Source of the DNA: a virus | Lineage: Duplodnaviria > Heunggongvirae > Uroviricota > Caudoviricetes | IMG/VR virus record: IMGVR_UViG_3300035682_000015 | Strand: one strand, 5' to 3' | Length of the DNA: 64,000 nucleotides | Part shown: positions 7,846 to 61,514 of the stretch, in pieces | How the letters are laid out: each line of letters opens with the position of its first letter | Numbering within the stretch: the first letter of the stretch is position 1 | The notes under the pieces: generated by a model | Told to the model about the DNA's origin: nothing | What the model saw: the letters and a program-made list of their open reading frames with translations, nothing else | The model's database searches: none | Program-made: the position numbers and the translations under genes

Positions 7846-7858
7846 TTATATTTGTGCT

Positions 7859-8005
7859 ATGGATAATTTAAAAAAGTTTATAATAAAAAGAAAGTATGAC
7901 CTTTTGGCTGTGGTTAGTATTATTTTAATGATTTCAATTAATGTTATATTTGCAGTCCCGGCAATTATTTTTCTTATAATCGGAGAAAGTAAAACAAAAC
8001 ATTAA
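7859..8005 (+). CDS. small membrane peptide
   Basis: ATG 4 nt after TATATTTG (7847-7854). Confidence 0.4.
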   Translation: MDNLKKFIIKRKYDLLAVVSIILMISINVIFAVPAIIFLIIGESKTKH

Positions 8006-8526
8006 TGGGTAAGTTATTACCTACCCCATATCCCGGACAATCGATGGAAGAATACCGGAAACAATTAATTAATTTCCAAAACAACTATTGGAACTTTTTA
8101 AAACCATCAAAAGGTGGAAGTAAGTTTATACCACTACCTCCTGAACATTTAAAACCAAAAGAAATGAGACCAAACATTATTCCTGCCGTTGTGGCATCAA
8201 ACAAAAGAAAAAACGAAACAAAAAGAATGTCAAGAAAATTAAGTGAGCACGTTGAAGATGAATTATTCAACAAAGAAAAAAGAACAATTGTGGAACCAAA
8301 AATTAAAAAAGTAGTACCTAAACCACCACAATCAGAACCAAGAGTAATTAAAGAAGGTGAGCAACCGGTCAAAAAGAAAAAACCATACTACAGAAAGAAA
8401 TACTCAACACCGAAACTTGTTGAGGTTATTGTTCCGGAACCTGTTGAACAACATTTGTTTATTAAAGGGTTGATAATTGGTACTGTACTAACGGCTATTA
8501 TTAGTCATCTAATTTATTCAATATAA
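8005..8526 (+). CDS. lysine-rich tail-anchored membrane protein
   Basis: K/P-rich with single C-terminal TM. Confidence 0.5.
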   Translation: MGKLLPTPYPGQSMEEYRKQLINFQNNYWNFLKPSKGGSKFIPLPPEHLKPKEMRPNIIPAVVASNKRKNETKRMSRKLSEHVEDELFNKEKRTIVEPKIKKVVPKPPQSEPRVIKEGEQPVKKKKPYYRKKYSTPKLVEVIVPEPVEQHLFIKGLIIGTVLTAIISHLIYSI

Positions 8527-8527
8527 A

Positions 8528-8917
8528 ATGAAAAAACTATTATTAGTATTAGCGTTATTTTTAACAACATTAGTGTTCTCTCAGGAGAAACCATTCTTAA
8601 TGAGAGCGGAAACATTCCAAGCAGGGGTGGTTGATAATAAGGGGAATGTTGTGTGGGATAAATCTACAATTAGAAATTGTAATATTTTAATTAAGTTAGA
8701 GGATAGTAAAGTGACCATTTATTCAAAAACATCACAAGTTTATAATGTGATTACAATTGTAACAAAAAGTGATGAAGGAAATCAATGGTGTTGTCTTGAT
8801 GATAAAGGGGTTCGTTGTAATATCTATTTTATGCCGTTAAAAAATAACCCGGATAAATTAACATTGGGTGTTGAATATAGTGATTATGTTTGGTACTATA
8901 TTTGTAAAGAGAATTAA
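8528..8917 (+). CDS. secreted protein (signal peptide)
   Basis: N-terminal signal-like MKKLLLVLALFLTTLVFS. Confidence 0.55.
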   Translation: MKKLLLVLALFLTTLVFSQEKPFLMRAETFQAGVVDNKGNVVWDKSTIRNCNILIKLEDSKVTIYSKTSQVYNVITIVTKSDEGNQWCCLDDKGVRCNIYFMPLKNNPDKLTLGVEYSDYVWYYICKEN

Positions 8918-9547
8918 TATGTGGGAATATATTTTAATTAGTATTTTTGTAATCTTAGGGTTAGGGTCTTGGTTATTTATAATGTCGGAGTTACTTAAAA
9001 ATATTGTTAGACGATTAAAAGAAAGAAAAAAATAGGAAAACTTATCAAAATTGATGATAAATCAAAATAGATAACTATTTATGCGATGAAGATGTTTTAA
9101 TCTTCCCTAATCTATAAGTAATCTCAACAAAAATGAATTTCATTGCACCTGCCGCAATTCTCGTGATTTTAGTATCACTTGTTCTTTATTTAGTAAAGAA
9201 AACCCCTAAACAAATAGTTCAAGAGGAAGTGGTTATTGAACCACCGGTCAAGAAGAAAAGAGTGTATAAAAAGAAAACAAAAAAGGAATAATGGAAACAT
9301 TAGACCCTTCTGTTCCACTACCAATATTATTTGGTGTGATTTGTGTGTTAATGTTAATAGTGATAAAAGATGAGTTTAAAAAAGATAAAAATAAAAGTTA
9401 AATTATTGTTTGTGTTCTTCGGATGGTGTATATTAGATATACGAGAGAACTATAATGATATGAAATCTCGTTATCTTTTGGAAACGGACCCTGAACTATT
9501 AGAAATTCAGGAACATATTAAAGAATTAATGAAAAAGAAATAAAATT

Positions 9548-9578
9548 AACCCCCATTTAAACGATGGGGTTTTTTATT
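9548..9578 (+). terminator. intrinsic terminator
   Basis: CCCCAT-loop-ATGGGG + T-run. Confidence 0.65.
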
Positions 9579-9598
9579 TTTGTGATATATTTATAGAA

Positions 9599-9967
9599 AT
9601 GGAAATTAAAATTAGTCAGGAACGTTTAAAATATTTTGAAGATTTCATTTTTAATAGTTTTTATATTGATAATGAAGATTTATCTAAATGTTTTCACCCT
9701 CAAATGGGTTATATTAAATTTTTAACTCCTGGAACAAGACGAGATTTAATTGCTCAATATGATAAACAGTATAATTATATTACAGTATTTGATGATAAAT
9801 TATATGAATTAGTTAATCGTTGGGTTGGTTCTCGTACCATTTATGATTTAATTAAAGAAGATTTAATTAGGAGAGTTTTTAAGGTATATACCGAAAAATA
9901 TAAAGGAATATATAAAAAAGAACCAAAGGAGGTTAAGTTTGTTGATAAAGATTTTAATAAAGTTTAA
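9599..9967 (+). CDS. hypothetical protein
   Basis: 122 aa ATG ORF after terminator/ATATTTATA motif. Confidence 0.5.
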   Translation: MEIKISQERLKYFEDFIFNSFYIDNEDLSKCFHPQMGYIKFLTPGTRRDLIAQYDKQYNYITVFDDKLYELVNRWVGSRTIYDLIKEDLIRRVFKVYTEKYKGIYKKEPKEVKFVDKDFNKV

Positions 9968-9985
9968 TAATAAATGAAAAAAAAA

Positions 9986-10012
9986 TGAAGAAGTGTTTGG
10001 CACTTCTTTTTT
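9986..10012 (+). terminator. intrinsic terminator
   Basis: GAAGTG-loop-CACTTC + T-run, followed by TATATTTG-N4-ATG. Confidence 0.55.
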
Positions 10013-10030
10013 TATGCCTATATTTGTGCT

Positions 10031-10552
10031 ATGGAAATGGACTTTACAAAATACTCGGTAGAAGAATTAAGAGAACTTCAAAACAAGATTGGTTATTATT
10101 TACAAACTCGTAATGATGATTTTGTTTATATCTGTGAGATTAGGTCGTATGGTAAAAATTGGGTGAATAAATACACCAATGAACTTGCTGTGAATGATTT
10201 GTGTGCTGATTACGATGGTTATGATGGTATCGTGGATGTATATACAACCAATCCGGATGCAGATATTAATAACTACGGTGAGGTTAATTACATCAAATCG
10301 GATGAACAATACCGTAAGTGGAAAGATAGTGAGAAATTAATATCTTCAATAAAAAGTGCTGAGGAGAGGTTGGCAAAATGGAAAGATAGAGATAACATTC
10401 CATTCCATTCAAGACCAACCTTTGCTCCGATGTGGACAGAACAAGATATTCTTGGGTGGAGAAATGAATTAGAAACCATTGGTGAGTATGAAAAACCTAC
10501 ATCAATTAAAAAAAGTGAAGAGTATGAAGAATCTGACTATGAAGGAGATTAA
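10031..10552 (+). CDS. hypothetical acidic protein
   Basis: 173 aa. Confidence 0.5.
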   Translation: MEMDFTKYSVEELRELQNKIGYYLQTRNDDFVYICEIRSYGKNWVNKYTNELAVNDLCADYDGYDGIVDVYTTNPDADINNYGEVNYIKSDEQYRKWKDSEKLISSIKSAEERLAKWKDRDNIPFHSRPTFAPMWTEQDILGWRNELETIGEYEKPTSIKKSEEYEESDYEGD

Positions 10553-14899: not shown

Positions 14900-14997
14900 A
14901 ACGGTTTATTTTAATTAGAGTACAAAGATACACTAATATTTTAACTTACCAAATTATTTGACAAAATAATTCATTATGTCTATTATTGTGAGGTAAA

Positions 14998-15573
14998 ATG
15001 ATTGATATGAAATTAAACGAACAATTAACAAAAATTAAATCAATGATGGGAATCAATGAAAACAAACAATCTTATCCATACTCTTGTGCTATGTTATACT
15101 TTAACCCGGATTCGGTTACAGAACTACATAGTAAAATAAACCCGGAGGACCTATACACAGAAGAAGATGGGTTTGGTTTAGAACCGGAATCACACTGTAC
15201 GTTACTATACGGATTACACGATAATGAGGTTGATATTGAAGATATTATTAACGTAATAAACAAATACTCTTACACAAATTGTAAGGCACATAACCTATCT
15301 TGTTTTAACAATCCAAAGTATGATGTGTTAAAATATGATATAATGGGGGATAATCTAAGTGAAACTAATGAGGAGTTAAAACAATTCCCATTCACAAGTG
15401 ATTACCCGGACTATCACGCCCATATGACCGTGGCATATCTTAAACCGGGTAAAGGTAATCATTATATTAATATGTTGGGTGATGAATACAAAGAAATGGT
15501 AATGACACCTCAACACGCTGTGTATTCAAGAACTGATGGTACCAAACACAAAATACCGGTTAGGTTTACATAA
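14998..15573 (+). CDS. 2H phosphoesterase superfamily protein (LigT/Acb1-like)
   Basis: Two H-x-T-x motifs 76 aa apart: HCTLLYGL (aa 66) and HMTVAYL (aa 142), matching HxTLxFxG / HxT[LV]A of LigT-type 2H enzymes. Confidence 0.55.
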   Translation: MIDMKLNEQLTKIKSMMGINENKQSYPYSCAMLYFNPDSVTELHSKINPEDLYTEEDGFGLEPESHCTLLYGLHDNEVDIEDIINVINKYSYTNCKAHNLSCFNNPKYDVLKYDIMGDNLSETNEELKQFPFTSDYPDYHAHMTVAYLKPGKGNHYINMLGDEYKEMVMTPQHAVYSRTDGTKHKIPVRFT

Positions 15574-15839: not shown

Positions 15840-15847
15840 TATCTTTG
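15840..15847 (+). promoter_or_regulatory. -7 promoter element TATCTTTG (copy 1 of duplicated 47-nt promoter unit)
   Basis: Identical unit at 16246-16292. Confidence 0.5.
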
Positions 15848-16262: not shown

Positions 16263-16270
16263 TATCTTTG
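16263..16270 (+). promoter_or_regulatory. -7 promoter element TATCTTTG (copy 2)
   Basis: Duplicate of 15823-15870. Confidence 0.5.
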
Positions 16271-17749: not shown

Positions 17750-17965
17750 ATGATAGAAGATAAGATTGGGGGTCTAAATGATTCCGAAATTAACTTTCTA
17801 AAAGATTTTGGTACAGACCCTGTGTTAAGAAAGTTTATGACATCTGAAGAAATTAAGGTTTCAAATAAATTAGTTAAGAAAGGATTGATGGAAAAAGGAA
17901 TGTCTGACGATAAAAAGTCAAATGTTGTTTATTATGTTGATTCATTTATATATACAAGATTATGA
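17750..17965 (+). CDS. hypothetical small protein
   Basis: 71 aa. Confidence 0.4.
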   Translation: MIEDKIGGLNDSEINFLKDFGTDPVLRKFMTSEEIKVSNKLVKKGLMEKGMSDDKKSNVVYYVDSFIYTRL

Positions 17966-18054
17966 TAGTAAATACAATTGAATTCCCAACACCAATAGGG
18001 GTAAAATGTAATATGATGCCGTTCTATGGCAATACGAAGGTAGATAAAATTAAA

Positions 18055-18085
18055 CAAAGGAGATGTAACATTCTCCTTTTTTTTA
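18055..18085 (+). terminator. intrinsic terminator
   Basis: AGGAGA-loop-TCTCCT + T8, then TATATTTATATATATG start. Confidence 0.55.
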
Positions 18086-18096
18086 TATTTATATAT

Positions 18097-18594
18097 ATGA
18101 ATTTACAAGAGAATATAATTAGAATACAGGAAATGATGGGGATTATCTCTGAGGCTAAATCTTCATATACTGTATCTCAGATAAAGAAGGGGTTAAATAA
18201 GTCAGAAAACGACAAAGATATAACAATTAATACGAGTATTGATAATGTTATAGATAATATTGACCAATTTGAGTTTGAGATTGGTTCTGTAGAATCATTT
18301 TTAGATGATGAGAACAGTTTCACATCGGATTCGTTGGTGGATAAACTTATATCTTACGTCAAAGATAAGAATTTAAATATTGATATATCTAAATTGATTG
18401 AGTACAACAATTATAGAAAGGAGTACGATAAGAATGATGATAAAGTGTTTGAACTTTTATATAACACACACCCTGATGATGACTATTCAGAGGAGATAGA
18501 TAGGTTACGTGATAGAAATGATGAGTTATATAAGTATTTTGATTTACTAAAACAGGAAACCTTAAAGATTAAACAAGAGATTATTAATTTATAA
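18097..18594 (+). CDS. MNLQENI-leader family protein
   Basis: MNLQENIIRIQEMMGIISE. Confidence 0.5.
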   Translation: MNLQENIIRIQEMMGIISEAKSSYTVSQIKKGLNKSENDKDITINTSIDNVIDNIDQFEFEIGSVESFLDDENSFTSDSLVDKLISYVKDKNLNIDISKLIEYNNYRKEYDKNDDKVFELLYNTHPDDDYSEEIDRLRDRNDELYKYFDLLKQETLKIKQEIINL

Positions 18595-19364
18595 TGAATT
18601 TACAAGAAGATATACAGAGAATAAGACAGATGATGATTTCGGAAGAAATGGTTCAATCTGATGCGTGGAAATCAATCAAGAAAACATTAGACATTCTTAA
18701 AAAGAAAAAGAAAGTTTTAATCTTAAGTTGTTCCAATAGATATAATTGGGATGAGAAAAACCTTGACATACCAAAATCAAAGATGATTGCAATGTATCTT
18801 AACGATGAGTTAAAAAACTCAGTGTTAATTGATGTTTCCGAACTTAATATTGTTCCTTGTGAGGGGAATGTGTCGAGAAAAGACGGGAACAGTTGTGGTT
18901 TATTAAAAGCGATGCTCAAAGATAAGAAAAAGAATCCATCCGGTGACCATAGATGTTGGGCGAGTTATAACAATCCAAAGGATGAGTTATGGAAGATATC
19001 TAAGGAGTTATTTGAATCTGATGCTGTTGTATTCTTTAGTTCCGTAAGATGGGGACAGACCAATATGTTTTATCAGAATTTAATTGAGAGATTGACTTGG
19101 ATTGAGAACAGACACGCAACCTTGGGTGAATCAAATCTTGTTAAAGATATTGAGACAGGATTCATTTGTGTTGGACAGAATTGGAATGGTGAGAATGTGA
19201 CTGAAACACAGAAAGAAGTTCATAGGTTCTACGGATTCAAACCAAATAATGATTTATATTGGAATTGGCAATACACCAAGAATGTGAACGATGAAACCCA
19301 AAAATCATATAAGGATTCACACAAGAAATTTATCAAAGATACTAAATTATCTGATACCAAATAA
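18594..19364 (+). CDS. MNLQE-leader protein with flavodoxin-like/NADPH-FMN reductase-like fold
   Basis: KVLILSCSNR ... AVVFFSSVRWGQTNMFYQNLIER pattern resembles flavodoxin_2 family; weak. Confidence 0.4.
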   Translation: MNLQEDIQRIRQMMISEEMVQSDAWKSIKKTLDILKKKKKVLILSCSNRYNWDEKNLDIPKSKMIAMYLNDELKNSVLIDVSELNIVPCEGNVSRKDGNSCGLLKAMLKDKKKNPSGDHRCWASYNNPKDELWKISKELFESDAVVFFSSVRWGQTNMFYQNLIERLTWIENRHATLGESNLVKDIETGFICVGQNWNGENVTETQKEVHRFYGFKPNNDLYWNWQYTKNVNDETQKSYKDSHKKFIKDTKLSDTK

Positions 19365-19365
19365 T

Positions 19366-19800
19366 ATGAACTTACAAGAAAACATAGATAGAATACAAAT
19401 AATGATGGGAATTATCACAGAAAACAAGACAATTCAAAAAATGGTTGATGAGTTAGGTTTGGTAACGGCTATCAAATATTATGGGGGTTTTGATAATTTC
19501 ATTAAACATTATAGATTTCCACCTAAGGAGGAGATTCTTAATTTAATTAAGAAAGTATTCAAGGATTCAAAGACAAATGAATTTTATGATACAAATATTA
19601 ATATTTTAAATAGAAGAGATGATGAGGTGGATATTGTCAGTGTATTTCATCCTGATTCAATGTTTTTTGAGACCTACGAAACATTGGATGGTAGATTAAT
19701 AAAATTAAAAACAGAAAAAACAGTTAGATATGAGGATTTACCGGAGAATATTCTTAATAGAGTATTTTATGATATAATAAGATTGTCTGAAAAAAAATAA
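19366..19800 (+). CDS. MNLQENI-leader family protein
   Basis: MNLQENIDRIQIMMGIITE. Confidence 0.5.
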   Translation: MNLQENIDRIQIMMGIITENKTIQKMVDELGLVTAIKYYGGFDNFIKHYRFPPKEEILNLIKKVFKDSKTNEFYDTNINILNRRDDEVDIVSVFHPDSMFFETYETLDGRLIKLKTEKTVRYEDLPENILNRVFYDIIRLSEKK

Positions 19801-20877: not shown

Positions 20878-20960
20878 ATCAAATAAATATCTAACAAAGA
20901 TAAAACATTTTATTGATTATATGGGGGAAATTATATATTATTATAATAAAATTAAATACT

Positions 20961-24449: not shown

Positions 24450-24558
24450 CACCATGTCATGTTAATAACTTTGTTGATAACTTTTTACCTTAACTTATTA
24501 ACAATGTCATACTGTCATGTTGATAAGTTTTTTTGGATATGTCAAATATACCCCCACT

Positions 24559-26956: not shown

Positions 26957-26964
26957 TATCTTTG
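26957..26964 (+). promoter_or_regulatory. -7 promoter element TATCTTTG (duplicated unit AATGAAATGTTTGT.TTATCTTTGT also at 27509)
   Basis: direct read. Confidence 0.5.
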
Positions 26965-27495: not shown

Positions 27496-27546
27496 TATTT
27501 GGCCGTATGAAATGTTTGTTATATCTTTGTCGGAAATAAATTGATT

Positions 27547-34319: not shown

Positions 34320-34784
34320 ATGAAAAAAATTATAAAATTAACGGAATCTGATTTAAGAAATATTGTGATGAGAATCATTAACGAACAATTTGATTCTGAA
34401 TACTACGACATTATTTTGGATTTATATAACGAAGTTGGGCTTGAGGGTATGACTGATGAAGAAATTAAATATCTGAAAAGTGGTGGTGAGAGCAATGTCC
34501 CTGAAAGATTTTTGGGTGGTGATTTAAATATTGATTTTGATGACGAATCGGAAGGCGATTATGATGGTCTTGATAGATTCAAAGAAATTATGGATGGTTT
34601 CAATCATAAGATTGTCGATACCGCTCCGGATGGTAAGTTAAGAGTTGTCTTTAAAGAAAGACCTGAGATATTAGAGAAACTTAAAGGTGTGGTTTCCGAA
34701 TCATCAATTGAAGTTAGACAAGGTCATATAATTATTCTTGTTCCTGAGAATTGGACTGATGATATCTTTGGAGAAGAAATATAA
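34320..34784 (+). CDS. acidic protein with LTESDLRNI leader
   Basis: MKKIIKLTESDLRNIVMRIINEQ, same leader as 59994-60230. Confidence 0.5.
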   Translation: MKKIIKLTESDLRNIVMRIINEQFDSEYYDIILDLYNEVGLEGMTDEEIKYLKSGGESNVPERFLGGDLNIDFDDESEGDYDGLDRFKEIMDGFNHKIVDTAPDGKLRVVFKERPEILEKLKGVVSESSIEVRQGHIIILVPENWTDDIFGEEI

Positions 34785-35749: not shown

Positions 35750-35786
35750 AAATCCCCAATTATTTTTTAGTTGGGGATTTTTTTAT
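35750..35786 (+). terminator. intrinsic terminator
   Basis: TCCCCAA-loop-TTGGGGA + T7. Confidence 0.65.
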
Positions 35787-35798
35787 TATCTTTGTCGA

Positions 35799-36059
35799 AT
35801 GAAAAAATGGGTGTTCAAATATTTTGATACGTTTTGTTATGGGGAACTAATTGAGGATGAAAAAGACCCTAATTGGACTAAACCAAATTCGTCTTATGAA
35901 GGATTTGGATATTCAATAGATGCAAAATATGTTTTTTACAATCAGTCATTGGAAAATATCGTTTTTTCTATGTTTTGTGTTGGAAGGACTGATTTTAAAA
36001 AATATTTGGGTGAGTGGTTTGAAAGTAGATATGATTTACCGGTATCGTTGGTTTTGTAA
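35799..36059 (+). CDS. family-D paralog
   Basis: MKKWVFKYFD; TATCTTTG 4 nt upstream (leaderless class). Confidence 0.5.
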   Translation: MKKWVFKYFDTFCYGELIEDEKDPNWTKPNSSYEGFGYSIDAKYVFYNQSLENIVFSMFCVGRTDFKKYLGEWFESRYDLPVSLVL

Positions 36060-38909: not shown

Positions 38910-38941
38910 ATTAACCCCATCCTAATCGGTGGGGTTTTTTG
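38910..38941. terminator. bidirectional intrinsic terminator
   Basis: CCCCATC-loop-GGTGGGG with A-run/T-run flanks; overlaps stop of minus gene. Confidence 0.65.
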
Positions 38942-39944
38942 TTCCATATTTAATTATGATTTCAGTTGTTTCTTTTTGTCTTGAACCACTAATATAAGTT
39001 CTGGATATTTTAACACCTTCATCTATAACCTCATCAATTTGAGGACCCCACTTAATATATATGAGATTGGTTTTTGGGTCGGTATATCCGGCTGCCACAG
39101 TTTCTTTAACACCATTCTCAATCACATCATCAATCATTTTGGGAACACTATTGGTTTCATTTTCTTCCAACCAATCAAGAACACCAACAAGGTCACCATC
39201 TTCACCGGGTGTTTTTGTTTCTTTAACACCATTTTTAATCACACCAGCAATTCTTCCTTTGTGGTGATATACATCATCGTGAGTTTCTATTACACCCTTG
39301 TCAATCACTTTATCAACTATATCTCCACCTACATATTGACGTGGGTGAGAAGTTTTTACACCATTTCCGAGAACCTCATCAATGTCTCCTGTATATTCAC
39401 GAGATTGTAAGGGTGAAATTATTTTAACACCATTTTGTAGGACATCTTCAGCTAAAGTAGAACCACCTACAAAGGCAAAAATGGTTTCCTTCACACCATT
39501 TTCAAGAGTATCATCAACTGATAAGATTCTTTTATCACCCCAATAATTGGTGTTCTTTACCCCATTTTCAATAGTATCCTCAACCGACCAATCCGTTTTC
39601 ATATGAGCCATTTTAGTTTTTTTCACACCATTTTCAAGAGTGTCCTCAAATTGTTGTTTTCTATCCCGGGCATCTCTAAAGAGTGTAACATAAGTTAACT
39701 CTTTATTTATAATATTATCTTCCACCCATTTGGTGATGAGGTGTTGGTTCTGAACGCAATCCAACGAAGCGTAAGCAAAAATACTTTTGAAGAAGTTGTA
39801 ATTATACCATAGAGTTTTATTCTCAGTTAGTTCAATCATCCATTGTTTGGACTCAGTAAAGATTAACCAAGTGGAACCATTATGGGTATAAGTGTCCACC
39901 CCTTTAGTAAATTCATTAATTAATTTATTTATAATTCTTTCCAT
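38922..39944 (-). CDS. repeat protein with ~9 copies of D[TV][LI]ENGVK[EK]T unit
   Basis: Internal ~28-aa repeats read in translation. Confidence 0.6.
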   Translation of the reverse strand: MERIINKLINEFTKGVDTYTHNGSTWLIFTESKQWMIELTENKTLWYNYNFFKSIFAYASLDCVQNQHLITKWVEDNIINKELTYVTLFRDARDRKQQFEDTLENGVKKTKMAHMKTDWSVEDTIENGVKNTNYWGDKRILSVDDTLENGVKETIFAFVGGSTLAEDVLQNGVKIISPLQSREYTGDIDEVLGNGVKTSHPRQYVGGDIVDKVIDKGVIETHDDVYHHKGRIAGVIKNGVKETKTPGEDGDLVGVLDWLEENETNSVPKMIDDVIENGVKETVAAGYTDPKTNLIYIKWGPQIDEVIDEGVKISRTYISGSRQKETTEIIIKYGTKNPTD

Positions 39945-40000
39945 AGAACAAAGATAATAAAACTATTTCTTATCATCAAATAATAAATTATATTTTTTAA

Positions 40001-40523: not shown

Positions 40524-40552
40524 AACCCCCAGTTAATTTTGGGGGTTTTTTA
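40524..40552 (+). terminator. intrinsic terminator
   Basis: ACCCCC-loop-GGGGGT + T-run. Confidence 0.7.
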
Positions 40553-41460: not shown

Positions 41461-41812
41461 TGGAAAATATTTAACAAAACACCCTTTTTAGTGGAAAAAA
41501 ACGTCTATTTTAAAGATTTTTTTAATTTTTAATGGAAAATACCTTACATTTGTAATATGATATACCTTATTCTTTATTTTAATATTGGTCTTATACTCTC
41601 ATTACTTTTTTTTATACTGATGAGTATTTCAGAACAAGACATAACTTTTAACGACATTCTTGTTGTTATATTTTTATGGCCTTTAGTAATTTATTATATA
41701 ATCACCGAACACTTTTAAAAATTTGAGATATTTATAAAAACTAGTATATTATTTTACTAGTTTTTATATTAAATAATTCATTATTAATAGTTTAAAAATA
41801 TCAAGACCCAAA

Positions 41813-46182: not shown

Positions 46183-46281
46183 TTTTAAATGTTTTAGATT
46201 ATTATTATTCGACAAAGATATACAAAAAATCTTATTACAACAACTTTTTATTAAAAATATTTTTCTTATATTTGTATTGTT

Positions 46282-46512
46282 ATGGAACAGAAAAAGTTTG
46301 AAAGAATATTATATGGTTTATTTCCCAATCTTAAAATTATAGATTATAAATTATGGGAAAGATATGAAGTTGATGAAAATGGTGAATTTATAAAACCAAA
46401 TTCTCCTGCAATATTTGTTGAGGTGACTGGTGAAATTGAACCGGGTGTTAATATTGGTGAGCATATAACTCGTATGACGGGGTTAGAAGTTATTATAGAT
46501 AAATTTAATTAA
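46282..46512 (+). CDS. hypothetical small protein
   Basis: TATATTTG 7 nt upstream. Confidence 0.45.
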   Translation: MEQKKFERILYGLFPNLKIIDYKLWERYEVDENGEFIKPNSPAIFVEVTGEIEPGVNIGEHITRMTGLEVIIDKFN

Positions 46513-46539: not shown

Positions 46540-46547
46540 TATCTTTG
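46540..46547 (+). promoter_or_regulatory. -7 promoter element TATCTTTG
   Basis: 19 nt upstream of 46567. Confidence 0.45.
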
Positions 46548-51951: not shown

Positions 51952-52125
51952 ATGGGACTTATAAATAATCTTTATGCTGTGTATGAAAAATCACCGGCAC
52001 ACGGGAGCAAAGAACATAATGTAATTTTGGCTCCTTTCAAAACTAAAGAAGAGGCAGAACAAAACAGAATTAAATACGGTTATAACACCGATAATTATTA
52101 CGTAGATATTTTGAAATATGAATAA
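51952..52125 (+). CDS. hypothetical small protein
   Basis: 57 aa, stop overlaps thyA start. Confidence 0.3.
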   Translation: MGLINNLYAVYEKSPAHGSKEHNVILAPFKTKEEAEQNRIKYGYNTDNYYVDILKYE

Positions 52126-53266
52126 ACTAGATAAACAATACACAGACCTTCTCCAAGACATTCTTGACAACGGAGTAACAAAACAAGACAGAACAGGTAC
52201 AGGGACAATCTCAGTATTCGGAAGACAAATACGTCACGATATGAAAGATGGTTTTCCTCTTTTGACTACAAAGAAAATGCCATTCAAAACAATCGTAACA
52301 GAACTTCTTTGGTTCTTACGAGGAGATACCAACATTAAGTTTTTGGTTGATAATAATTGTCATATTTGGGATGGTGATTGCTACAAATCTTATAAACAAA
52401 GTATTTTAGAATCCTTTGATAGATTATCAAATGACCCCGTAATAGATGCGATGCCACCTAGAATATTAACACAAGAAGAATTCACCAACAAAATCAAAAC
52501 AGATGATGAGTTTGCTAAGAAGTGGGGTGAGTTAGGTCCTGTGTACGGTAAGCAATGGAGAAAGTGGGGTTATGATAGTGATAAATGGAGAGAAGACTAT
52601 AACAAATTACAATTTGGTTCTAAAGAAGAAATTGAACACCTTAGTAAAAAAGGTATAGACCAAATCACAAACCTAATCAACGACCTTAAAACAAATCCAG
52701 ACTCAAGACGATTGATGGTTAATGCTTGGAATGTTGGAGAATTAGACCAAATGGTTCTTCCACCTTGTCATTATGGATTTCAAGTTTATACAAGAGAGTT
52801 GAGTTTAGATGATAGAAAAGATATTTGGAATAAAAACAATTTCAGTCAAGATATGTCGTGGCATAATATGGAAGAACACGATATTATGGATTTACTAAAC
52901 GATAATGACATCCCAAAACGAGCAATCTCTTTAATGTTTAATATGAGGTCAAATGATGTTCCATTAGGGCTTCCATTTAATATATCATCTTATGGTTTAT
53001 TATTAGAAATTATTGGGAAAATGGTTAATATGATACCTGACGAATTAATTACTAATTTAGGTGATGCTCATATCTATAAAAACCAAGTAGATGGTGTTAA
53101 AGAACAATTAACAAGGAAACCATTTGAATTACCTAAATTAGTTATGTCTAACCAAATTAATTTTAATGAAAGTGTTGCTGAATTTTTGAATAGTTGTCTA
53201 ATAACTGATTTTATTGTTGAAAATTATCAATCACATCCAACCATAAAAATGCCATTATCTAACTAG
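52118..53266 (+). CDS. thyA: thymidylate synthase family (ThyA, long-insert type); possibly pyrimidine hydroxymethylase
   Basis: DRTGTGT, ELLWFLRGDTN, LGPVYGKQWR, LPPCHYGFQ (catalytic Cys), DVPLGLPFNISSYG; L. casei-like small-domain insert plus extra ~35-aa insert. Confidence 0.8.
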   Translation: MNKLDKQYTDLLQDILDNGVTKQDRTGTGTISVFGRQIRHDMKDGFPLLTTKKMPFKTIVTELLWFLRGDTNIKFLVDNNCHIWDGDCYKSYKQSILESFDRLSNDPVIDAMPPRILTQEEFTNKIKTDDEFAKKWGELGPVYGKQWRKWGYDSDKWREDYNKLQFGSKEEIEHLSKKGIDQITNLINDLKTNPDSRRLMVNAWNVGELDQMVLPPCHYGFQVYTRELSLDDRKDIWNKNNFSQDMSWHNMEEHDIMDLLNDNDIPKRAISLMFNMRSNDVPLGLPFNISSYGLLLEIIGKMVNMIPDELITNLGDAHIYKNQVDGVKEQLTRKPFELPKLVMSNQINFNESVAEFLNSCLITDFIVENYQSHPTIKMPLSN

Positions 53267-53322: not shown

Positions 53323-54153
53323 ATGAAAAAGTTTTTAATCTATGAAATAAAAAACAATATAAATGGTAAATCTTATATTGGACAATATAGTGGTGAGTCA
53401 TTTGAAAAGTATTTTGGAAGTGGAAAATTAATTAAGTTATCAATAAAAAAATATGGGTTAGAAAATTTTTCTAAAACAATTTTAGAAGAGTGCTTTAATA
53501 AAAATGAATTGAATGAAAAAGAAATTTTTTGGATAGATAAATTAAAAACTATTGAAAATGGTTATAATTTGACTGAAGGTGGAACAGGGGGTGATTTGTC
53601 TGAATTTATAAAGTATGGTGAGAATTGGGTTGAAAAACAAAGAATCTCCACAAAAAAATATTGGGACAATCTAACTGAAGATGAAAGAAAAAAAAGAAGT
53701 GAAATTGTTTCAGGTGAAAAAAATGGGATGTATGGTAAAGATGGATTTTGGAAGGGTAAAAAAATACCAATAGATATTATTAAAAAGTCATTGGAGAATA
53801 GAAGAAGTTACGATAAAGAACAAAACCCAAATTGGAAAGGTGGTGTTACATATGTTTATTGTGAATGTGGTAAAAGAATAGGTTATGGTCACATTCATTG
53901 TAACAAATGTAGACCTAGAACTAAAAACAATAATCCATTTTATGGGAAACAACATTCCGAAGAGACTAAAAAAAAATTAAGTGAAAAAAGGAAAGGGGTA
54001 AAACCAACAAATATGAAACCGGTAATGATTGATAATATTATTTATGAAAGTTTGGCGGAAGCGTCAAATATACTTAAAATTCCAATGGTTACAATTCGTT
54101 GGAGAGTGAAAAGTAATAATGAAAAATTTAATAATTACCAATATAAAGAATAA
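53323..54153 (+). CDS. GIY-YIG homing endonuclease
   Basis: IYEIKNNINGKSYIGQ ... NGYNLTEGGTGG; NUMOD-like repeats; Cys4 zinc finger CECGKRIGYGHIHCNKCR. Confidence 0.75.
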   Translation: MKKFLIYEIKNNINGKSYIGQYSGESFEKYFGSGKLIKLSIKKYGLENFSKTILEECFNKNELNEKEIFWIDKLKTIENGYNLTEGGTGGDLSEFIKYGENWVEKQRISTKKYWDNLTEDERKKRSEIVSGEKNGMYGKDGFWKGKKIPIDIIKKSLENRRSYDKEQNPNWKGGVTYVYCECGKRIGYGHIHCNKCRPRTKNNNPFYGKQHSEETKKKLSEKRKGVKPTNMKPVMIDNIIYESLAEASNILKIPMVTIRWRVKSNNEKFNNYQYKE

Positions 54154-57747: not shown

Positions 57748-57959
57748 TGGACGTATATCAAATTCACCAGGAGTTCAATTGGGTTAATAAGGTCTTATTT
57801 TCATCCCAAACTGATAAACATATAGAATGTTGTATTAATTTATTCAATAATTTTATGAATAAATGGAGTTTTGAGATGACTCAAGATTTAAAAATAAATT
57901 TTAATCGAGATTTTAATGAAAATTATTTGTCTCATAAAGAAAAATTACTATCTTTGTAA
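57747..57959 (+). CDS. hypothetical small protein
   Basis: TAATG coupling. Confidence 0.4.
   Translation: MDVYQIHQEFNWVNKVLFSSQTDKHIECCINLFNNFMNKWSFEMTQDLKINFNRDFNENYLSHKEKLLSL
57949..57956 (+). promoter_or_regulatory. -7 promoter element TATCTTTG
   Basis: 16 nt upstream of ATG 57973. Confidence 0.45.
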
Positions 57960-58935: not shown

Positions 58936-58943
58936 TATCTTTG
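58936..58943 (+). promoter_or_regulatory. -7 promoter element TATCTTTG
   Basis: 17 nt upstream of 58961. Confidence 0.45.
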
Positions 58944-59992: not shown

Positions 59993-59993
59993 A

Positions 59994-60230
59994 TTACAAA
60001 TTTTGCCAAACCACTTGTGGTATTTTAGTCCATACTTCGTCAGAACCTTCTTTTTTTAAGTGCGGTAATGTTTTGATATATTTATGAATAAATTTTGGAC
60101 CTCTTTCAATTCTTTTAATCATAGATTCCCGTCTATATAATTGGTCAGGTTTATAATGGTCTTGTTCAGAAATAACTCTTCTAATAATGTTGGTTAAATC
60201 TGATTCGGTTAATCTTACTATTTTTTTCAT
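59994..60230 (-). CDS. LTESDL-leader small protein
   Basis: MKKIVRLTESDLTNIIRRVISEQ. Confidence 0.5.
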   Translation of the reverse strand: MKKIVRLTESDLTNIIRRVISEQDHYKPDQLYRRESMIKRIERGPKFIHKYIKTLPHLKKEGSDEVWTKIPQVVWQNL

Positions 60231-60255
60231 AATGATAAATATTAACTAAAATAAA

Positions 60256-60287
60256 AAACCCCACATTTACGGTGGGGGTTTTTATTA
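60256..60287. terminator. bidirectional intrinsic terminator
   Basis: CCCCAC-atttac-GGTGGGGG. Confidence 0.65.
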
Positions 60288-60473
60288 TCCATTCATAATC
60301 TGTTGTAATTGACCCATAATTCTTTGTTGTTGTTCTAAAAGTTTGTTTATTTTAGATTGTTGTTCTTGGTTTAGGTCAATATTCTCCCCTTTAATTGAGG
60401 CGATTTCATTAGCAATTCTATCGAAACCATACGTTAGATTGTTGTACTGTTGGGCTTTTTGTTCTTCGTTCAT
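60285..60473 (-). CDS. coiled-coil small protein
   Basis: 62 aa Q-rich. Confidence 0.4.
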   Translation of the reverse strand: MNEEQKAQQYNNLTYGFDRIANEIASIKGENIDLNQEQQSKINKLLEQQQRIMGQLQQIMNG

Positions 60474-60598
60474 ATTTTAATTATAAATAGATTAATAAAA
60501 AAGTAAAACATATTGACTTTTTATCTCAATATAGTATATTTATTACCAATGAACCGATATGAATTATACACGCCGAACAATTATATTACTGAAAAGTA

Positions 60599-60632
60599 AG
60601 TCCCTATTTTATTTTAGGGACTTTTTTTTGCC
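60599..60632 (+). terminator. orphan intrinsic terminator after 16-codon mini-ORF
   Basis: AGTCCCTA-loop-TAGGGACT + T8 in divergent intergenic region. Confidence 0.5.
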
Positions 60633-60666
60633 CATATGTTAAAAATTAAAATTAAATATAAAAACC

Positions 60667-61497
60667 ATGAAAAACACAAAAACTTACCACGAGTTGGTAC
60701 AAAAATTAAGAACGTTCTTCGTAAATAAGAACTTTATTGAGGTTCCGACCCAATCAAGATTATCTATTTTAGCTGCTTGTGAAAACCCACACTCAGTAAA
60801 AACCTTTGAATATGGGGGTGAAATTTGGCCATTACCACAAACCGGGCAAATGTGGTTAGAATTGGAATTATTGAAGAATCCTGAATGGGATGGAGTGTTC
60901 TGTATTTCAACATCATATAGAGAAGAGAAAAATCCAATCCCGGGTCGTCACGAATTAATCTTTCCCATGTTTGAATTTGAATCAAAGGGCGGTATGCTTC
61001 ATTTACTCGTATTAGAACGTGAATTATTACAATATTTAGGTTTCTCAGAACCAGTTCCCGTAGATTACGAACAAGTTTGTAAAGAATATGGAGATGTTTC
61101 TATTTTAGAAGATGAACACGAATCGAGAATGTGGAAAGAAAAAAGTGAGGTTATATCATTACAAAACTTTCCAATTAGAACAAACCCATTTTGGAATATG
61201 AAACACGATTCAGATAACATCTTCAATAAGGTTGACGTAATCCTTTTTGGTCAAGAAACTATTGGTTCTGCTGAAAGAAGTTGTGATGTTGAAAAGATGC
61301 GAGAGATGTTCTATACAATTGAAGGTGGTGGTTACTCTCAGAAATTATTTGAATTATTTGGAAAAGATAGAGTTGAGAAAGAATTAAAAGAATTCTTATC
61401 TTTGGACTTTTTCCCAAGATTCGGAGCCGGAATTGGTTTAACAAGATTGGCAAGAGCTTATGAATTAAATCAAAAAGTTTTGGAAGTTATAGAATAA
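60667..61497 (+). CDS. class-II aminoacyl-tRNA synthetase catalytic-core paralog (EpmA/GenX- or AsnA-like), no anticodon-binding domain
   Basis: Motif 1 FFVNKNFIEVPTQ; motif 2 YREEKNPIPGRHELIFPMFEFE; motif 3 RFGAGIGLTRLARAY. Confidence 0.6.
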   Translation: MKNTKTYHELVQKLRTFFVNKNFIEVPTQSRLSILAACENPHSVKTFEYGGEIWPLPQTGQMWLELELLKNPEWDGVFCISTSYREEKNPIPGRHELIFPMFEFESKGGMLHLLVLERELLQYLGFSEPVPVDYEQVCKEYGDVSILEDEHESRMWKEKSEVISLQNFPIRTNPFWNMKHDSDNIFNKVDVILFGQETIGSAERSCDVEKMREMFYTIEGGGYSQKLFELFGKDRVEKELKEFLSLDFFPRFGAGIGLTRLARAYELNQKVLEVIE

Positions 61498-61502
61498 TTT
61501 AT

Positions 61503-61510
61503 TACCTTTG
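61503..61510 (+). promoter_or_regulatory. -7 promoter element TACCTTTG, 4 nt from ATG (leaderless class)
   Basis: direct read. Confidence 0.4.
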
Positions 61511-61514
61511 TCCT

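What the first reader, a model, noticed from the sequence alone, without database searches (positions are those of the whole stretch)
7847..61514. Two spacing classes of TAnnTTTG promoters, one implying leaderless mRNAs
One class has the -7 box 16-37 nt before the ATG (1085, 1951, 15840, 16263, 26957, 27522, 46540, 57949, 58936, plus minus-strand 14923, 20895, 46213). The second class has exactly 4 nt between the box and the ATG: TATATTTG-tgct-ATGG at 7847 and 10019, TATCTTTG-tcga-ATG at 35787, TACCTTTG-tcct-ATG at 61503, and rc TATCTTTG-ttct-ATG at 39949. With Bacteroidetes initiation about 5 nt past the box, class-2 transcripts would start at the A of the ATG, making them leaderless. The two TATATTTGTGCTATGG copies are identical 16-mers, each placed after a terminator.
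Basis: partly seen in the sequence, partly recalled or inferred. Interest (0 to 1): 0.5.

Follow-up and report, generated by a model that had tools for sequence, protein, structure and literature searches.

The report
Leaderless genes in a Bacteroidota jumbo phage
In this large phage of Bacteroidota bacteria, about a third of the host-type promoters sit exactly four bases before a gene's ATG, so the messenger RNA should begin at the start codon itself; this "leaderless" layout is rare in the hosts but conserved across dozens of gene families in related phages.

Summary
All five TAnnTTTG-N4-ATG sites are at the stated coordinates, and a sixth is at 41545. The 12 leadered sites have spacers of 16-37 nt, and no site has a spacer of 8-15.

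- **Enrichment:** TANNTTTGNNNNATG occurs 8 times against 2.0±1.3 expected. Six of the eight open intergenic ORFs.
- **Related phages:** in 1.17 Mb of related jumbo-phage contigs, spacer 4 is the largest single class (36 gene families, plus 11 at spacer 5), ahead of a broad leadered hump of 78 families. Controls are flat.
- **Conservation:** orthologues down to ~36% identity keep the 4-nt spacing while the spacer letters change.
- **Shared promoter:** both classes have the same architecture (TTG at -35..-33, T at -4). Codon periodicity starts at codon 2, and only ATG, not GTG or TTG, is enriched at this offset.
- **Geometry:** published TSS maps place the box at -12..-5, so +1 falls on the A of the ATG.

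The leaderless reading is therefore well supported but still inferred, because no 5' ends were mapped.

Leaderless mRNAs are known and occur at 4-13% in Bacteroidota. The ~30-38% seen in this phage clade is new. This is a new member of a known kind, of moderate interest.

The parts
7813..7839 (+). Intrinsic-terminator-like hairpin just upstream of the class-2 promoter. Its loop carries the -33 TTG (7824-7826, 20 nt before the box).
7847..7854 (+). Class-2 -7 box TATATTTG, 4 nt (tgct) before the ATG at 7859.
7859..8005 (+). 48-aa hydrophobic ORF, predicted leaderless. An in-frame ATG at 7811 is an alternative start that some gene callers use.
9987..10009 (+). Terminator-like hairpin. Its loop carries the -33 TTTG (9996-9999, 19 nt before the box). 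Orthologues keep a hairpin with different stem sequences.
10019..10026 (+). Class-2 -7 box TATATTTG, 4 nt (tgct) before the ATG at 10031. All 7 orthologous loci keep a box plus 4 nt.
10031..10552 (+). 173-aa ORF (MEMDFTKY...), predicted leaderless. Independent JGI gene calls use the same start.
35754..35776 (+). Hairpin (CCCCAA...TTGGGG) followed by a T-run, upstream of the class-2 promoter. Orthologues have different hairpins at the same place.
35787..35794 (+). Class-2 -7 box TATCTTTG, 4 nt (tcga) before the ATG at 35799. Orthologues L004, L009 and L120 have TATCTTTG-tcaa-ATG.
35799..36059 (+). 86-aa ORF, predicted leaderless. Public gene calls use the same start.
39949..39956 (-). Class-2 -7 box TATCTTTG, 4 nt (ttct) before the ATG at 39944. 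A -33 TTG lies 20 nt upstream. The spacing is kept in orthologues of 36-60% identity, with spacers ttgt, ctgt, ttat, tggt and tcct.
38922..39944 (-). 340-aa ORF with ENGVK repeats, predicted leaderless.
41545..41552 (+). Class-2 -7 box TACATTTG, 4 nt (taat) before the ATG at 41557. This is the weakest member: there is no -33 TTG and the L115 homologue lacks the box.
41557..41718 (+). 53-aa hydrophobic ORF. It is not called in any public assembly.
61503..61510 (+). Class-2 -7 box TACCTTTG, 4 nt (tcct) before the ATG at 61515. The -33 TTG (gap 20) lies inside the 3' end of the upstream aaRS-like gene. Orthologues L035, L036, L037 and L042 keep spacer 4. L058 has the same box 26 nt upstream, a leadered variant.
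61515..61697 (+). 60-aa ORF, predicted leaderless. The same start is called in 43 blocks of public assemblies.
46267..46274 (+). Box TATATTTG, 7 nt before the ATG at 46282 (76-aa ORF 46282-46512). The predicted leader is 2-3 nt. Orthologues L003 and L115 keep the 7-nt spacing with TATACTTG.
1085..1092 (+). Class-1 box TATCTTTG, 25 nt before the ATG at 1118. -33 TTG at gap 19.
1951..1958 (+). Class-1 box, 37 nt before the ATG at 1996. -33 TTG at gap 19.
9575..9582 (+). Class-1 box TATTTTTG, 16 nt before the ATG at 9599, just after terminator 9551-9569.
14923..14930 (-). Class-1 box, 23 nt before the ATG at 14899. -33 TTG at gap 19.
15840..15847 (+). Class-1 box, 27 nt before the ATG at 15875. 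-33 TTG at gap 19.
16263..16270 (+). Class-1 box, 29 nt before the ATG at 16300.
20895..20902 (-). Class-1 box, 17 nt before the ATG at 20877.
26957..26964 (+). Class-1 box, 18 nt before the ATG at 26983. -33 TTG at gap 20.
27522..27529 (+). Class-1 box, 17 nt before the ATG at 27547. -33 TTG at gap 20.
34763..34770 (+). Class-1 box, 35 nt before the ATG at 34806. It lies in the 3' end of the upstream gene.
40534..40541 (+). Class-1 box TAATTTTG, 24 nt before the ATG at 40566.
46213..46220 (-). Class-1 box, 30 nt before the ATG at 46182. -33 TTG at gap 20.
46540..46547 (+). Class-1 box, 19 nt before the ATG at 46567. -33 TTG at gap 20.
57949..57956 (+). Class-1 box, 16 nt before the ATG at 57973. 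-33 TTG at gap 19.
58936..58943 (+). Class-1 box, 17 nt before the ATG at 58961.

Best explanation
The window is part of a ~300-kb freshwater jumbo phage that infects Bacteroidota. Its genes are transcribed from promoters of the host primary-sigma type: TTG at about -33, a 19-20 nt gap, then TAnnTTTG at -12..-5.

In about two thirds of promoter-proximal genes the start codon lies 16-37 nt past the box. That gives an 11-33 nt, A-rich, SD-less leader of the usual Bacteroidota kind.

In the remaining third the ATG lies exactly 4 nt past the box (sometimes 5 nt in relatives). RNA polymerase should then initiate with the A of the ATG and make a 5'-pppAUG mRNA with no leader, or at most 1 nt. Such an mRNA would be translated by direct binding of ribosome and initiator tRNA to the 5'-terminal AUG. 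This is the route known from lambda cI and from Actinobacteria and Deinococcus.

Some of these units are compact cassettes. The hairpin and T-run of the upstream terminator double as the -33 element and the T-rich spacer of the promoter.

Shown: the motif geometry, its enrichment, its conservation, the promoter architecture shared by both classes, the specificity for ATG, and coding that starts at that ATG.

Inferred: the TSS position, use of host sigma-A RNA polymerase, and the translation mode.
For: 1. Enrichment in the window. The pattern occurs 8 times against 2.0 expected, with 6 at intergenic ORF starts.

2. Bimodal spacing in the window: 6 sites at 4 nt, 1 at 7 nt, none at 8-15 nt, 15 at 16-37 nt.

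3. Spacing in 1.17 Mb of related IMG/VR loci plus the window, collapsed to protein families. Spacer 4 has 36 families, spacer 5 has 11, spacers 7-14 are nearly empty, and spacers 15-37 hold 78 families. Controls with the reversed motif and with G changed to C are flat.

4. Specificity for ATG. ATG is the most frequent trinucleotide at spacer 4 (97 of 1221 box contexts, against 12-41 at other offsets). GTG and TTG are not enriched.

5. Conservation in orthologues. The 340-aa gene keeps box plus 4 nt in relatives of 36-60% identity, with six different spacer tetramers. The 173-aa gene keeps it in all 7 loci. The 86-aa and 60-aa genes also keep it. Within families, neighbouring non-motif positions differ in ~50-60% of pairs, while -35/-34 TT, -18..-15, -4 T and -1 T stay conserved. 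Third-codon-position variability begins at codon 2.

6. Same promoter in both classes. TTG lies 19-20 nt upstream of the box in 26 of 47 class-2 families and 27 of 78 class-1 families, against ~5% expected by my estimate. Both have an A-tract at -24..-20 and T at -4. In class 1, A is the commonest base (56%) at the position where class 2 has the A of the ATG. Class 2 has T at -1 in 75% of families, the pyrimidine-purine pair expected to fix the start site.

7. Published geometry. The box sits at -12..-5 (PMC9723704). There are 4-5 nt between box and TSS (PMC6847099). The host example Fjoh_0236 has the TSS on its start codon.

8. Host type. There is no SD enrichment (7% against 8% in random 15-mers). 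A is enriched at -3, -6 and -11..-13, the determinants validated in F. johnsoniae. ClpP is closest to huge phages and to Lak phages of Prevotella. ThyA relatives lie on ~250-kb contigs binned with Bacteroidota MAGs.

9. Negative control. 478 kb of non-Bacteroidota bacterial DNA holds 501 boxes and none at spacer 4 or 5.

10. The same layout occurs in cultured Flavobacterium phage 11b, where the ATG at 21116 is the annotated CDS start, and in huge phage LR745206.
Against: - No 5'-end data exist for this phage or any relative. The TSS is extrapolated from host studies.
- Baez's RNA-seq table uses offsets of 4-5 from the box G, which is 3-4 nt between G and TSS. A 1-nt leader (U-AUG) is therefore as compatible as a true zero leader.
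- Read-through from upstream genes could also produce leadered, polycistronic copies of these ORFs. At 61503, for example, there is no terminator.
- Two of the window's six sites are weak. The 7859 ORF has an alternative in-frame start at 7811. The 41557 ORF is uncalled in public assemblies and its homologue lacks the box.
- One orthologue (L058) carries the same gene with a 26-nt leader, and L006 and L020 have spacer 6, so the arrangement is not obligatory.
- Leaderless translation has not been demonstrated biochemically in Bacteroidota.
- The prevalence is patchy. The Lak-A1 sample, the first 50 kb of PTm1, and the contigs around ThyA show none.
Confidence: 0.75

Rival explanations
1. The boxes are real promoters, but initiation is imprecise or offset by 1-3 nt. 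Class-2 mRNAs would then carry very short leaders or start inside the ATG. The ORFs would be translated mainly from read-through polycistronic transcripts, not from 5'-terminal AUGs.
For: - Baez's table gives TSS-to-G offsets of 4 as often as 5.
- Spacers of 5, 6 and 7 nt also occur.
- At 61503 the box starts 5 nt after the upstream stop codon, with no terminator.
Against: - The sharp peak at one spacing (36 families at 4 nt, 11 at 5, 3 each at 3 and 6), the specificity for ATG, and the strong T(-1)A(+1) all indicate selection to place the A at the start site.
- If these ORFs depended on read-through there would be no reason to conserve the spacing.
- Several sites sit directly after terminators, which limits read-through.
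Confidence: 0.12
2. The box-proximal ATG is not the real start codon. Translation would begin at a downstream codon, so the transcript has a conventional leader and the ATG at +1 merely reflects a preference for initiating with A-U-G.
For: - The 173-aa gene has a second in-frame ATG 6 nt downstream (MEM...).
- The class-1 consensus after the box is also A-T/A-A.
Against: - Variability at third codon positions begins at codon 2, and the first residues are conserved among orthologues (MERIINKL / MEKIIHKL, MKKWVFKYF / MKNLVFKYF).
- Independent gene callers choose the same ATG.
- ATG at +1 is 3-8 times more frequent than at neighbouring offsets, and it opens an ORF of at least 40 aa in 7 of 8 window cases.
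- Most class-2 ORFs have no nearby in-frame alternative start.
Confidence: 0.04
3. The motif next to the ATG is not read by host sigma-A RNA polymerase. It would be a phage-specific signal that happens to resemble the host -7 box, such as a site for a phage-encoded sigma or regulator, or a translational or RNA-processing signal.
For: - Jumbo phages often carry their own transcription machinery.
- The window is mostly ORFans, and nothing about timing is known.
Against: - The box, the -33 TTG at a 19-20 nt gap, the A and T tracts and T at -4 are identical in class 1 and class 2, and they match the published Bacteroidota consensus.
- The same layout occurs in a small Flavobacterium phage and in a host gene.
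- No sigma factor or RNA polymerase subunit turned up among the ~60 window proteins scanned.
- Even with a phage sigma factor the leaderless geometry would still hold.
Confidence: 0.05
4. The result is chance or compositional bias in an AT-rich genome.
For: TAnnTTTG is common in the window: 133 copies against 105 expected.
Against: - None of 100 shuffles reaches 8 copies of the full pattern.
- Control motifs are flat.
- 501 boxes in non-Bacteroidota DNA of similar GC content (0.35) give none at spacer 4 or 5.
- The spacing is conserved in orthologues.
Confidence: 0.01

Closest known systems
Bacteroidota primary-sigma (sigma-ABfr) promoters: -33 TTTG / -7 TAnnTTTG (Bayley 2000; Vingadassalom 2005; Baez 2019, PMC6847099; Ryan 2020, PMC7366714; PMC9723704)
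   Same: - The -7 box is the same, preferring TAHHTTTG (no G at -10 or -9).
- The -33 TTG lies 19-20 nt upstream.
- Class-1 leaders are 11-33 nt, like host leaders (modes of about 18-25 nt).
   Different: These promoters are on a phage genome. About one third are fused to a start codon at +1, against 3.7-13% short or absent leaders reported for host mRNAs.
Leaderless mRNAs of bacteria and phages: lambda cI from PRM; Actinobacteria and Deinococcus-Thermus; the in-silico signature of a -10-like element at a fixed short distance from the start codon (Zheng 2011, PMC3160421; GeneMarkS-2, PMC6028130)
   Same: - A -10-equivalent element sits at a fixed distance, so that +1 is the A of the AUG.
- The signal is specific to AUG.
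- There is no SD or other leader signal.
- The layout is conserved in orthologues.
   Different: - The promoter element is the Bacteroidota TAnnTTTG box, not a Pribnow TANNNT box.
- Zheng 2011 detected leaderless genes in only 1 of 37 Bacteroidetes/Chlorobi genomes, and noted that non-Pribnow promoters could be missed.
- TSS and translation are not yet demonstrated here.
Host leaderless genes in Flavobacteriia: F. johnsoniae Fjoh_0236 (Baez Table S2) and the 5.5% leaderless mRNAs of F. psychrophilum (PMC9723704)
   Same: The geometry is identical: TACTTTTG, 4 nt, then the start codon, with the predicted TSS on the start codon.
   Different: In the hosts this is a rare exception: 1 of ~21 probable promoters in the part of the table I read, the rest having leaders of 15-50 nt. 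In this phage clade it is the most common single spacing.
Freshwater bS21-encoding jumbo phages of Bacteroidetes (Chen et al. 2022, PMC9723584) and the huge phages of Al-Shayeb et al. (e.g. LR745206)
   Same: - Genome size (293-331 kb), GC content (~31-34%), freshwater origin and predicted Bacteroidetes hosts all match the window's relatives (272-318 kb contigs, 30.6% GC).
- The window's ClpP is 60% identical to that of LR745206, and a 50-kb sample of LR745206 shows the same box-N4/5-ATG sites.
   Different: - Membership of the window in the bS21 clade was not tested.
- No bS21 gene is in the window.
- That paper reports no promoter or leader analysis.

Membership tests
Bacteroidota sigma-A (sigma-ABfr) type promoter | -7 element TAnnTTTG (refined to TAHHTTTG) | tested here: met
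   All class-1 and class-2 sites carry it. In the window the boxes are TATCTTTG, TATATTTG, TACCTTTG and TACATTTG. G is absent at -10 and -9 by construction of the pooled search.
Bacteroidota sigma-A (sigma-ABfr) type promoter | -33 element TTG/TTTG about 19-21 nt upstream of the -7 box | tested here: met
   - TTG lies at a 19-20 nt gap in 26 of 47 class-2 families and 27 of 78 class-1 families, with T at 78% at -35 and -34.
- Four of 6 window class-2 sites and 10 of 15 class-1 sites have it.
- It is conserved within families while its neighbours diverge.
Bacteroidota sigma-A (sigma-ABfr) type promoter | Transcription initiates 4-5 nt downstream of the box, dependent on host sigma-A holoenzyme | not testable with these tools
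   No 5'-end data are available. The only indirect support is A at 56% at the predicted +1 of class-1 promoters.
Leaderless mRNA / leaderless gene | TSS coincides with the first base of the start codon (5' UTR of 0 to a few nt) | not testable with these tools
   - This is predicted from geometry only: box G at -5, 4-nt spacer, A of the ATG at +1.
- A contig that begins exactly at the ATG (L174) is explained by a strain-variation boundary, not by a TSS.
Leaderless mRNA / leaderless gene | A -10-type promoter element at a fixed short distance upstream of the start codon, genome-wide (the in-silico criterion of Zheng 2011 and GeneMarkS-2) | tested here: met
   There is a sharp peak at spacer 4 (36 families) and spacer 5 (11 families), against a background of 0-3 at spacers 0-14. 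The controls are flat.
Leaderless mRNA / leaderless gene | Start codon is AUG (a 5'-terminal AUG is required) | tested here: met
   At spacer 4 ATG is enriched (97 of 1221 box contexts), while GTG (10) and TTG (19) are at background.
Leaderless mRNA / leaderless gene | The ORF is really translated from that AUG | tested here: inconclusive
   - Computational support only.
- Codon periodicity starts at codon 2, N-termini are conserved, and independent gene calls agree for 4 of 6 window ORFs.
- No proteomic or ribosome-profiling data exist.
- The 7859 and 41557 ORFs are uncertain.
Leaderless mRNA / leaderless gene | Absence of the leader-borne initiation signals used by leadered genes of the same genome | tested here: met
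   - Window genes overall show A at -3 (69%), -6 (57%) and -11/-12 (61-64%), with no SD.
- In class 2, -6 and -12 are fixed as T by the box and -3 is A in only 36%.
Terminator-promoter insulated cassette (moron-like unit) | Intrinsic terminator immediately upstream of an own promoter and a single ORF | tested here: inconclusive
   - Three of 6 window class-2 sites fit (7847, 10019, 35787).
- In the pooled families the figure is 26% for class 2 against 12% for class 1, p = 0.07.
- It is a trend, not a defining property.
bS21-encoding freshwater Bacteroidetes jumbo phages (Chen 2022) | bS21 gene in the conserved structural-gene block; TerL phylogeny | not tested
   - The window holds no structural block.
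- None of the six relative-locus sample IDs I searched for appears in the paper's supplements.
- Only size, GC content, habitat and host phylum match.

The most novel reading that the evidence does not exclude
The high share of leaderless transcripts (about a third of promoter-proximal genes, and the largest single spacing class across the clade) is an adaptation, not a by-product of genome compaction. Jumbo phages of Bacteroidota would use 5'-terminal-AUG mRNAs as a separate translation channel. That channel would stay active, or be favoured, when the phage remodels host ribosomes or shuts off host initiation. Candidate triggers are the phage-encoded bS21 found in freshwater relatives, or a host defence that blocks canonical initiation. 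Leaderless phage mRNAs would then escape competition with A-rich-leader host mRNAs.
Probability: 0.1. Interest if true: 0.75.

Novelty: new member of a known kind. Interest (0 to 1): 0.42.

Why it matters
- **Expectation overturned.** Bacteroidota are usually described as using neither SD-led nor leaderless initiation. Published host TSS maps find only 4-13% short or absent leaders. A widespread clade of freshwater jumbo phages has the box-N4-ATG layout as its commonest promoter-gene geometry. This shows that leaderless expression works well enough in these hosts to be selected repeatedly.

- **Practical rule for annotation.** TAHHTTTG-T-NNN-ATG marks both a promoter and a true start codon. 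Applying it would correct gene starts that callers extend through terminators. Examples are 7811 against 7859 in this window, and probably the TerS start of Flavobacterium phage 11b.

- **Parts for expression.** The sites are compact terminator-promoter-AUG cassettes that could drive expression in Flavobacteriia.

- **A testable link.** It connects to the open question of why phages of these hosts carry ribosomal protein and translation genes.

Tried and rejected
1. **Contig end as a TSS proxy.** One JGI contig (L174) begins exactly at the ATG of the 173-aa gene. Strain variants are identical from the ATG onward and differ from position -1 upstream, so an assembly-graph break there is expected. 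This is not TSS evidence.

2. **The two identical 16-mers as a duplicated element.** The flanks are unrelated, orthologues carry other boxes and spacers, and identity within such a constrained motif is only marginally unexpected (about 0.07 pairs expected). I treat it as coincidence.

3. **'Class 2 follows terminators' as a class property.** The figures are 26% against 12%, p = 0.07, and the MFE difference is not significant. It is only a trend.

4. **Function of class-2 proteins.** PHROGs and Pfam give nothing for the class-2 ORFs scanned.

5. **Same-method host baseline.** The ClpP scan of genome contigs found nothing. The ThyA scan returned mostly phage-like contigs or other phyla, with only ~50 kb of genuine Bacteroidota DNA, which is too little. 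I relied on published TSS statistics and a sample of Baez Table S2 instead.

6. **Generality.**
   - No class-2 sites were found in the 50-kb samples of Lak-A1 and Tenacibaculum phage PTm1.
   - Cellulophaga phi38:1 has one, and LR756502 and LR756504 have one or two.
   - So this is not a universal trait of Bacteroidota phages.

7. **Relatives of neighbouring genes.** The scan for relatives of the 8005 gene found none. The 41860 gene has a single relative.

8. **Antisense TATCTTTG boxes at 18-19 kb.** They are explained by a repeated coding motif in three tandem paralogues, not by promoters.

9. **Known phages and RNAs.** Megablast of 8 kb against GenBank phages found no match. Rfam and tRNA scans found nothing in the window.

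Full report
**What the window is.** The 64-kb window has 30.6% GC, is densely packed with small genes that lie mostly on the + strand, and has no tRNA or Rfam hit. It has no nucleotide match among GenBank phages, and most of its proteins are ORFans.

The recognisable genes are:
- three GIY-YIG homing endonucleases and endonuclease VII;
- ClpP, thymidylate synthase, a GT2 glycosyltransferase and two metallophosphatases;
- an FKBP isomerase, a nitroreductase and an N-formylglutamate amidohydrolase;
- a truncated class-II aaRS-like protein and a PG-binding/GH19 endolysin.

This is an accessory, non-structural region of a large phage. Close relatives are IMG/VR contigs of 175-318 kb, mostly from freshwater. 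ClpP is most similar to that of the 635-kb 'huge phage' LR745206 (60% identity) and to Lak megaphages of Prevotella. ThyA relatives lie on ~250-kb contigs binned into Bacteroidetes, Flavobacteriaceae, Schleiferiaceae and Saprospirales MAGs.

Three features of the sequence itself point to a Bacteroidota host:
- The promoter consensus matches the Bacteroidota type (see below).
- SD motifs are not enriched upstream of genes (7% against 8% in random 15-mers).
- A is enriched at -3 (69%), -6 (57%) and -11/-12 (61-64%). These are the positions shown experimentally to stimulate initiation in Flavobacterium johnsoniae (PMC6847099).

**Checking the observation.** TANNTTTGNNNNATG occurs 8 times against 1.99 +/- 1.34 in shuffles, with none of 100 shuffles reaching 8.
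- The other two, 5674 and minus-strand 25680, are inside genes and are noise.
- A seventh site, 46267, has a 7-nt spacer.
- The 12 listed class-1 boxes precede gene starts by 16-37 nt. I found three more, at 9575, 34763 and 40534.
- No box-to-start distance falls between 8 and 15 nt.

About 7 of 22 promoter-proximal genes in the window are therefore of the short-spacing kind. The identical 16-mers and the upstream terminators at 7813-7839 and 9987-10009 are also real.

**Is it more than this window?** I fetched 120 related loci (1.17 Mb). I recorded the distance from each TAHHTTTG box to the first ATG of an ORF of at least 40 aa, then collapsed the sites into protein families by all-against-all BLASTP.
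- Spacer 4 holds 36 families and spacer 5 holds 11.
- Spacers 0-3 and 6-14 hold 0-3 families each.
- A broad hump at 15-37 nt holds 78 families.
- The reversed motif and a G-to-C variant give flat profiles.
- Among all 64 trinucleotides, ATG is the most frequent at spacer 4 (97 of 1221 unique box contexts, against 12-41 at other offsets). GTG and TTG are not enriched there.
- 478 kb of bacterial DNA from other phyla, with similar GC content and 501 boxes, has none at spacer 4 or 5.

The pattern also appears outside the clade, but unevenly:

| Sample | Sites at spacer 4 or 5 |
|---|---|
| LR745206, 50-100 kb | 6, several right after terminators |
| Flavobacterium phage 11b (36 kb) | 2, both after terminators; one is the annotated CDS start at 21116 |
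| Cellulophaga phage phi38:1, 50 kb | 1 |
| LR756502, 50 kb | 1 |
| LR756504, 50 kb | 2 |
| Lak-A1, 50 kb | 0 |
| Tenacibaculum phage PTm1, first 50 kb | 0 |

**Conservation.**
- *340-aa gene.* Orthologues at 36-60% identity keep box plus 4 nt plus ATG with six different spacer tetramers. Some relatives have the gene inside an operon with no box, and two have a 6-nt spacer.
- *173-aa gene.* All seven orthologous loci keep the spacing and an upstream hairpin whose stem sequence differs.
- *86-aa gene.* Its orthologues keep TATCTTTG-tcaa-ATG behind three different hairpins.
- *60-aa gene.* It keeps spacer 4 with three different boxes, although one relative (L058) has the box 26 nt upstream.
- *Within eight multi-member families.* Non-motif upstream positions differ in 50-60% of pairs. 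The -35/-34 TT, the T-tract at -18..-15, T at -4 and T at -1 stay conserved. Downstream of the ATG, third codon positions vary more than first and second positions from codon 2 onward.

The box and the ATG are invariant there by construction, but the other features are not. Independent gene callers pick the same ATG for four of the six window ORFs.

**What it is.** Aligned on the box, class 1 and class 2 share one architecture:
- TTG at -35..-33, 19-20 nt from the box (26 of 47 class-2 families and 27 of 78 class-1 families; about 5% expected by chance);
- an A-tract at -24..-20 and a T-tract at -18..-15;
- T at -4.

This is the published Bacteroidota primary-sigma promoter. TSS maps place the box at -12..-5 (PMC9723704) and report 4-5 nt between box and TSS (PMC6847099). 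With a 4-nt spacer, +1 is therefore the A of the ATG.

In class 1, A is the commonest base (56%) at that same position. Class 2 has T at -1 in 75% of families, against 31% in class 1. That gives the pyrimidine(-1)/purine(+1) pair expected to pin the start site.

Baez's Table S2 contains a host precedent, Fjoh_0236. It has TACTTTTG, with the box G 5 nt before the start codon and the predicted TSS on the start codon. It is the only such case among about 21 probable promoters in the part I read; the others have leaders of 15-50 nt.

Class-2 genes cannot carry the A(-3)/A(-6)/A(-12) leader determinants, because the box occupies those positions. This fits a different mode of initiation.

**Mechanism, and what is inferred.** The most likely reading is that host sigma-A RNA polymerase initiates at the A of the ATG. 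The resulting 5'-terminal-AUG mRNA would be translated by the leaderless pathway.

Sequence analysis shows the geometry, the enrichment, the conservation, the shared promoter, the specificity for ATG, and coding from that ATG. Three things are inferred:
- the exact TSS (a 1-nt leader is equally compatible with Baez's offsets of 4-5 from the G);
- the identity of the polymerase;
- the translation mode.

Read-through transcripts may add leadered copies at some sites. Two window members are weak: 7859 has an alternative in-frame start at 7811, and 41557 is uncalled and its homologue lacks the box.

**Sub-claims not supported.** The identical 16-mers are probably coincidence within a tightly constrained motif. 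Placement after a terminator is a trend only (26% against 12%, p = 0.07). Where it does occur, the cassette is neat: the terminator loop supplies the -33 TTG and the T-run supplies the T-rich spacer.

**Comparison with what is known.** Leaderless mRNAs are well established. Examples are lambda cI and many genes of Actinobacteria and Deinococcus, and the in-silico signature is a -10 element at a fixed distance from the start codon. They are reported as rare in Bacteroidota:

| Study | Organism or set | Leaderless or short-leader share |
|---|---|---|
| PMC7366714 | B. thetaiotaomicron | 3.7% of 5' UTRs under 10 nt |
| PMC9723704 | F. psychrophilum | 5.5% leaderless |
| PMC6847099 | F. johnsoniae | 13% with leaders of 10 nt or less |
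| PMC3160421 | 37 Bacteroidetes/Chlorobi genomes | detected in 1 genome (2.4% of its genes); non-Pribnow promoters could be missed |

I found no paper in the searchable library that describes TAnnTTTG promoters or leaderless transcripts in phages of Bacteroidota. That includes the paper on freshwater bS21 jumbo phages that resemble this one.

The finding is therefore a new member of a known kind. The mechanism is familiar, but its prevalence here is unexpected: about 32% of promoter-proximal genes in the window and 38% of families in the clade (47 class-2 against 78 class-1).

**Verdict.** Confidence that these are promoter-start fusions producing mRNAs with a leader of 0-1 nt is ~0.75. Interest is moderate (0.42). 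The more ambitious idea, that leaderless mRNAs form a phage-favoured translation channel linked to phage ribosome remodelling, is not excluded, but no evidence here supports it.

Noticed in passing
window 22373-24860: A gene-poor stretch with origin-like repeats, possibly a replication origin or another protein-binding array.
- TGTTGATAAC and its reverse complement occur seven times in both orientations (22877, 22918, 22940, 24460, 24472, 24492, 24518). The reverse complement, TTATCAACA, is one mismatch from a DnaA box.
- Three perfect tandem copies of a 23-nt unit, ACACTCCCGTTGGTTGGTCTCTG, lie at 24380-24452.
- Three copies of a ~33-nt repeat lie at 23496-23684.
   Followed up: partly
window 60667-61497: A 276-aa protein consisting only of a class-II aaRS catalytic core (Pfam tRNA-synt_2; AsnA/EpmA-like in size). 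It is very strongly conserved: more than 590 IMG/VR contigs match at 71-97% identity in the 80 best loci. It is 53% identical to the 'tRNA ligase' of Prochlorococcus phages P-SSM2 and P-SSM7. Its function in phages is unknown.
   Followed up: partly
window 14998-15573 (+) and 63361-63732 (-): Possible anti-defence genes. The first has a borderline match to anti-CBASS Acb1 (27.2 bits, cut-off 27). The second matches the Thoeris inhibitor Tad6 (32.3 bits, cut-off 27).
   Followed up: no
window 18097-19800: Three tandem paralogous genes begin at 18097, 18594 and 19366 with nearly the same N-terminus (MNLQE.I..I..MM). The true start of the ORF listed as 17962-18594 may therefore be 18097. The four antisense TATCTTTG boxes at 18213-19334 lie within these genes; those at 18360 and 18917 sit in a shared repeated motif (TCAAAGATAAGAA), so they are not promoters.
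   Followed up: yes
L172 against window 9950-10031 (also L030, L031, L034): Strain variants have an identical coding sequence from the ATG of the 173-aa gene onward, but a different terminator-promoter cassette immediately upstream (other hairpin stem, box TACTTTTG, spacer tcga). This suggests that regulatory cassettes are exchanged as modules at the start codon.
   Followed up: partly
L165 (Flavobacterium phage 11b, AJ842011) 4858-5340: The annotated small-terminase CDS starts at 4858 and runs through a terminator hairpin and a TATCTTTG box. The box sits 4 nt before an in-frame ATG at 4930. The annotated start is probably too far upstream, and the gene may be leaderless.
   Followed up: partly
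window 371-1165 (-), 44320-45219 (+), 53323-54153 (+), 21867-22373 (+): Three GIY-YIG/NUMOD3 homing-endonuclease genes and an endonuclease VII gene lie within 64 kb. The one at 53323 sits directly after thymidylate synthase (52118-53266), a classic target of homing endonucleases.
   Followed up: no
window 38922-39944 (-): The 340-aa class-2 protein contains about ten copies of a short repeat (…D.[IL]ENGVK.T…). It has no Pfam or PHROG match, yet it is conserved across many related phages.
   Followed up: no
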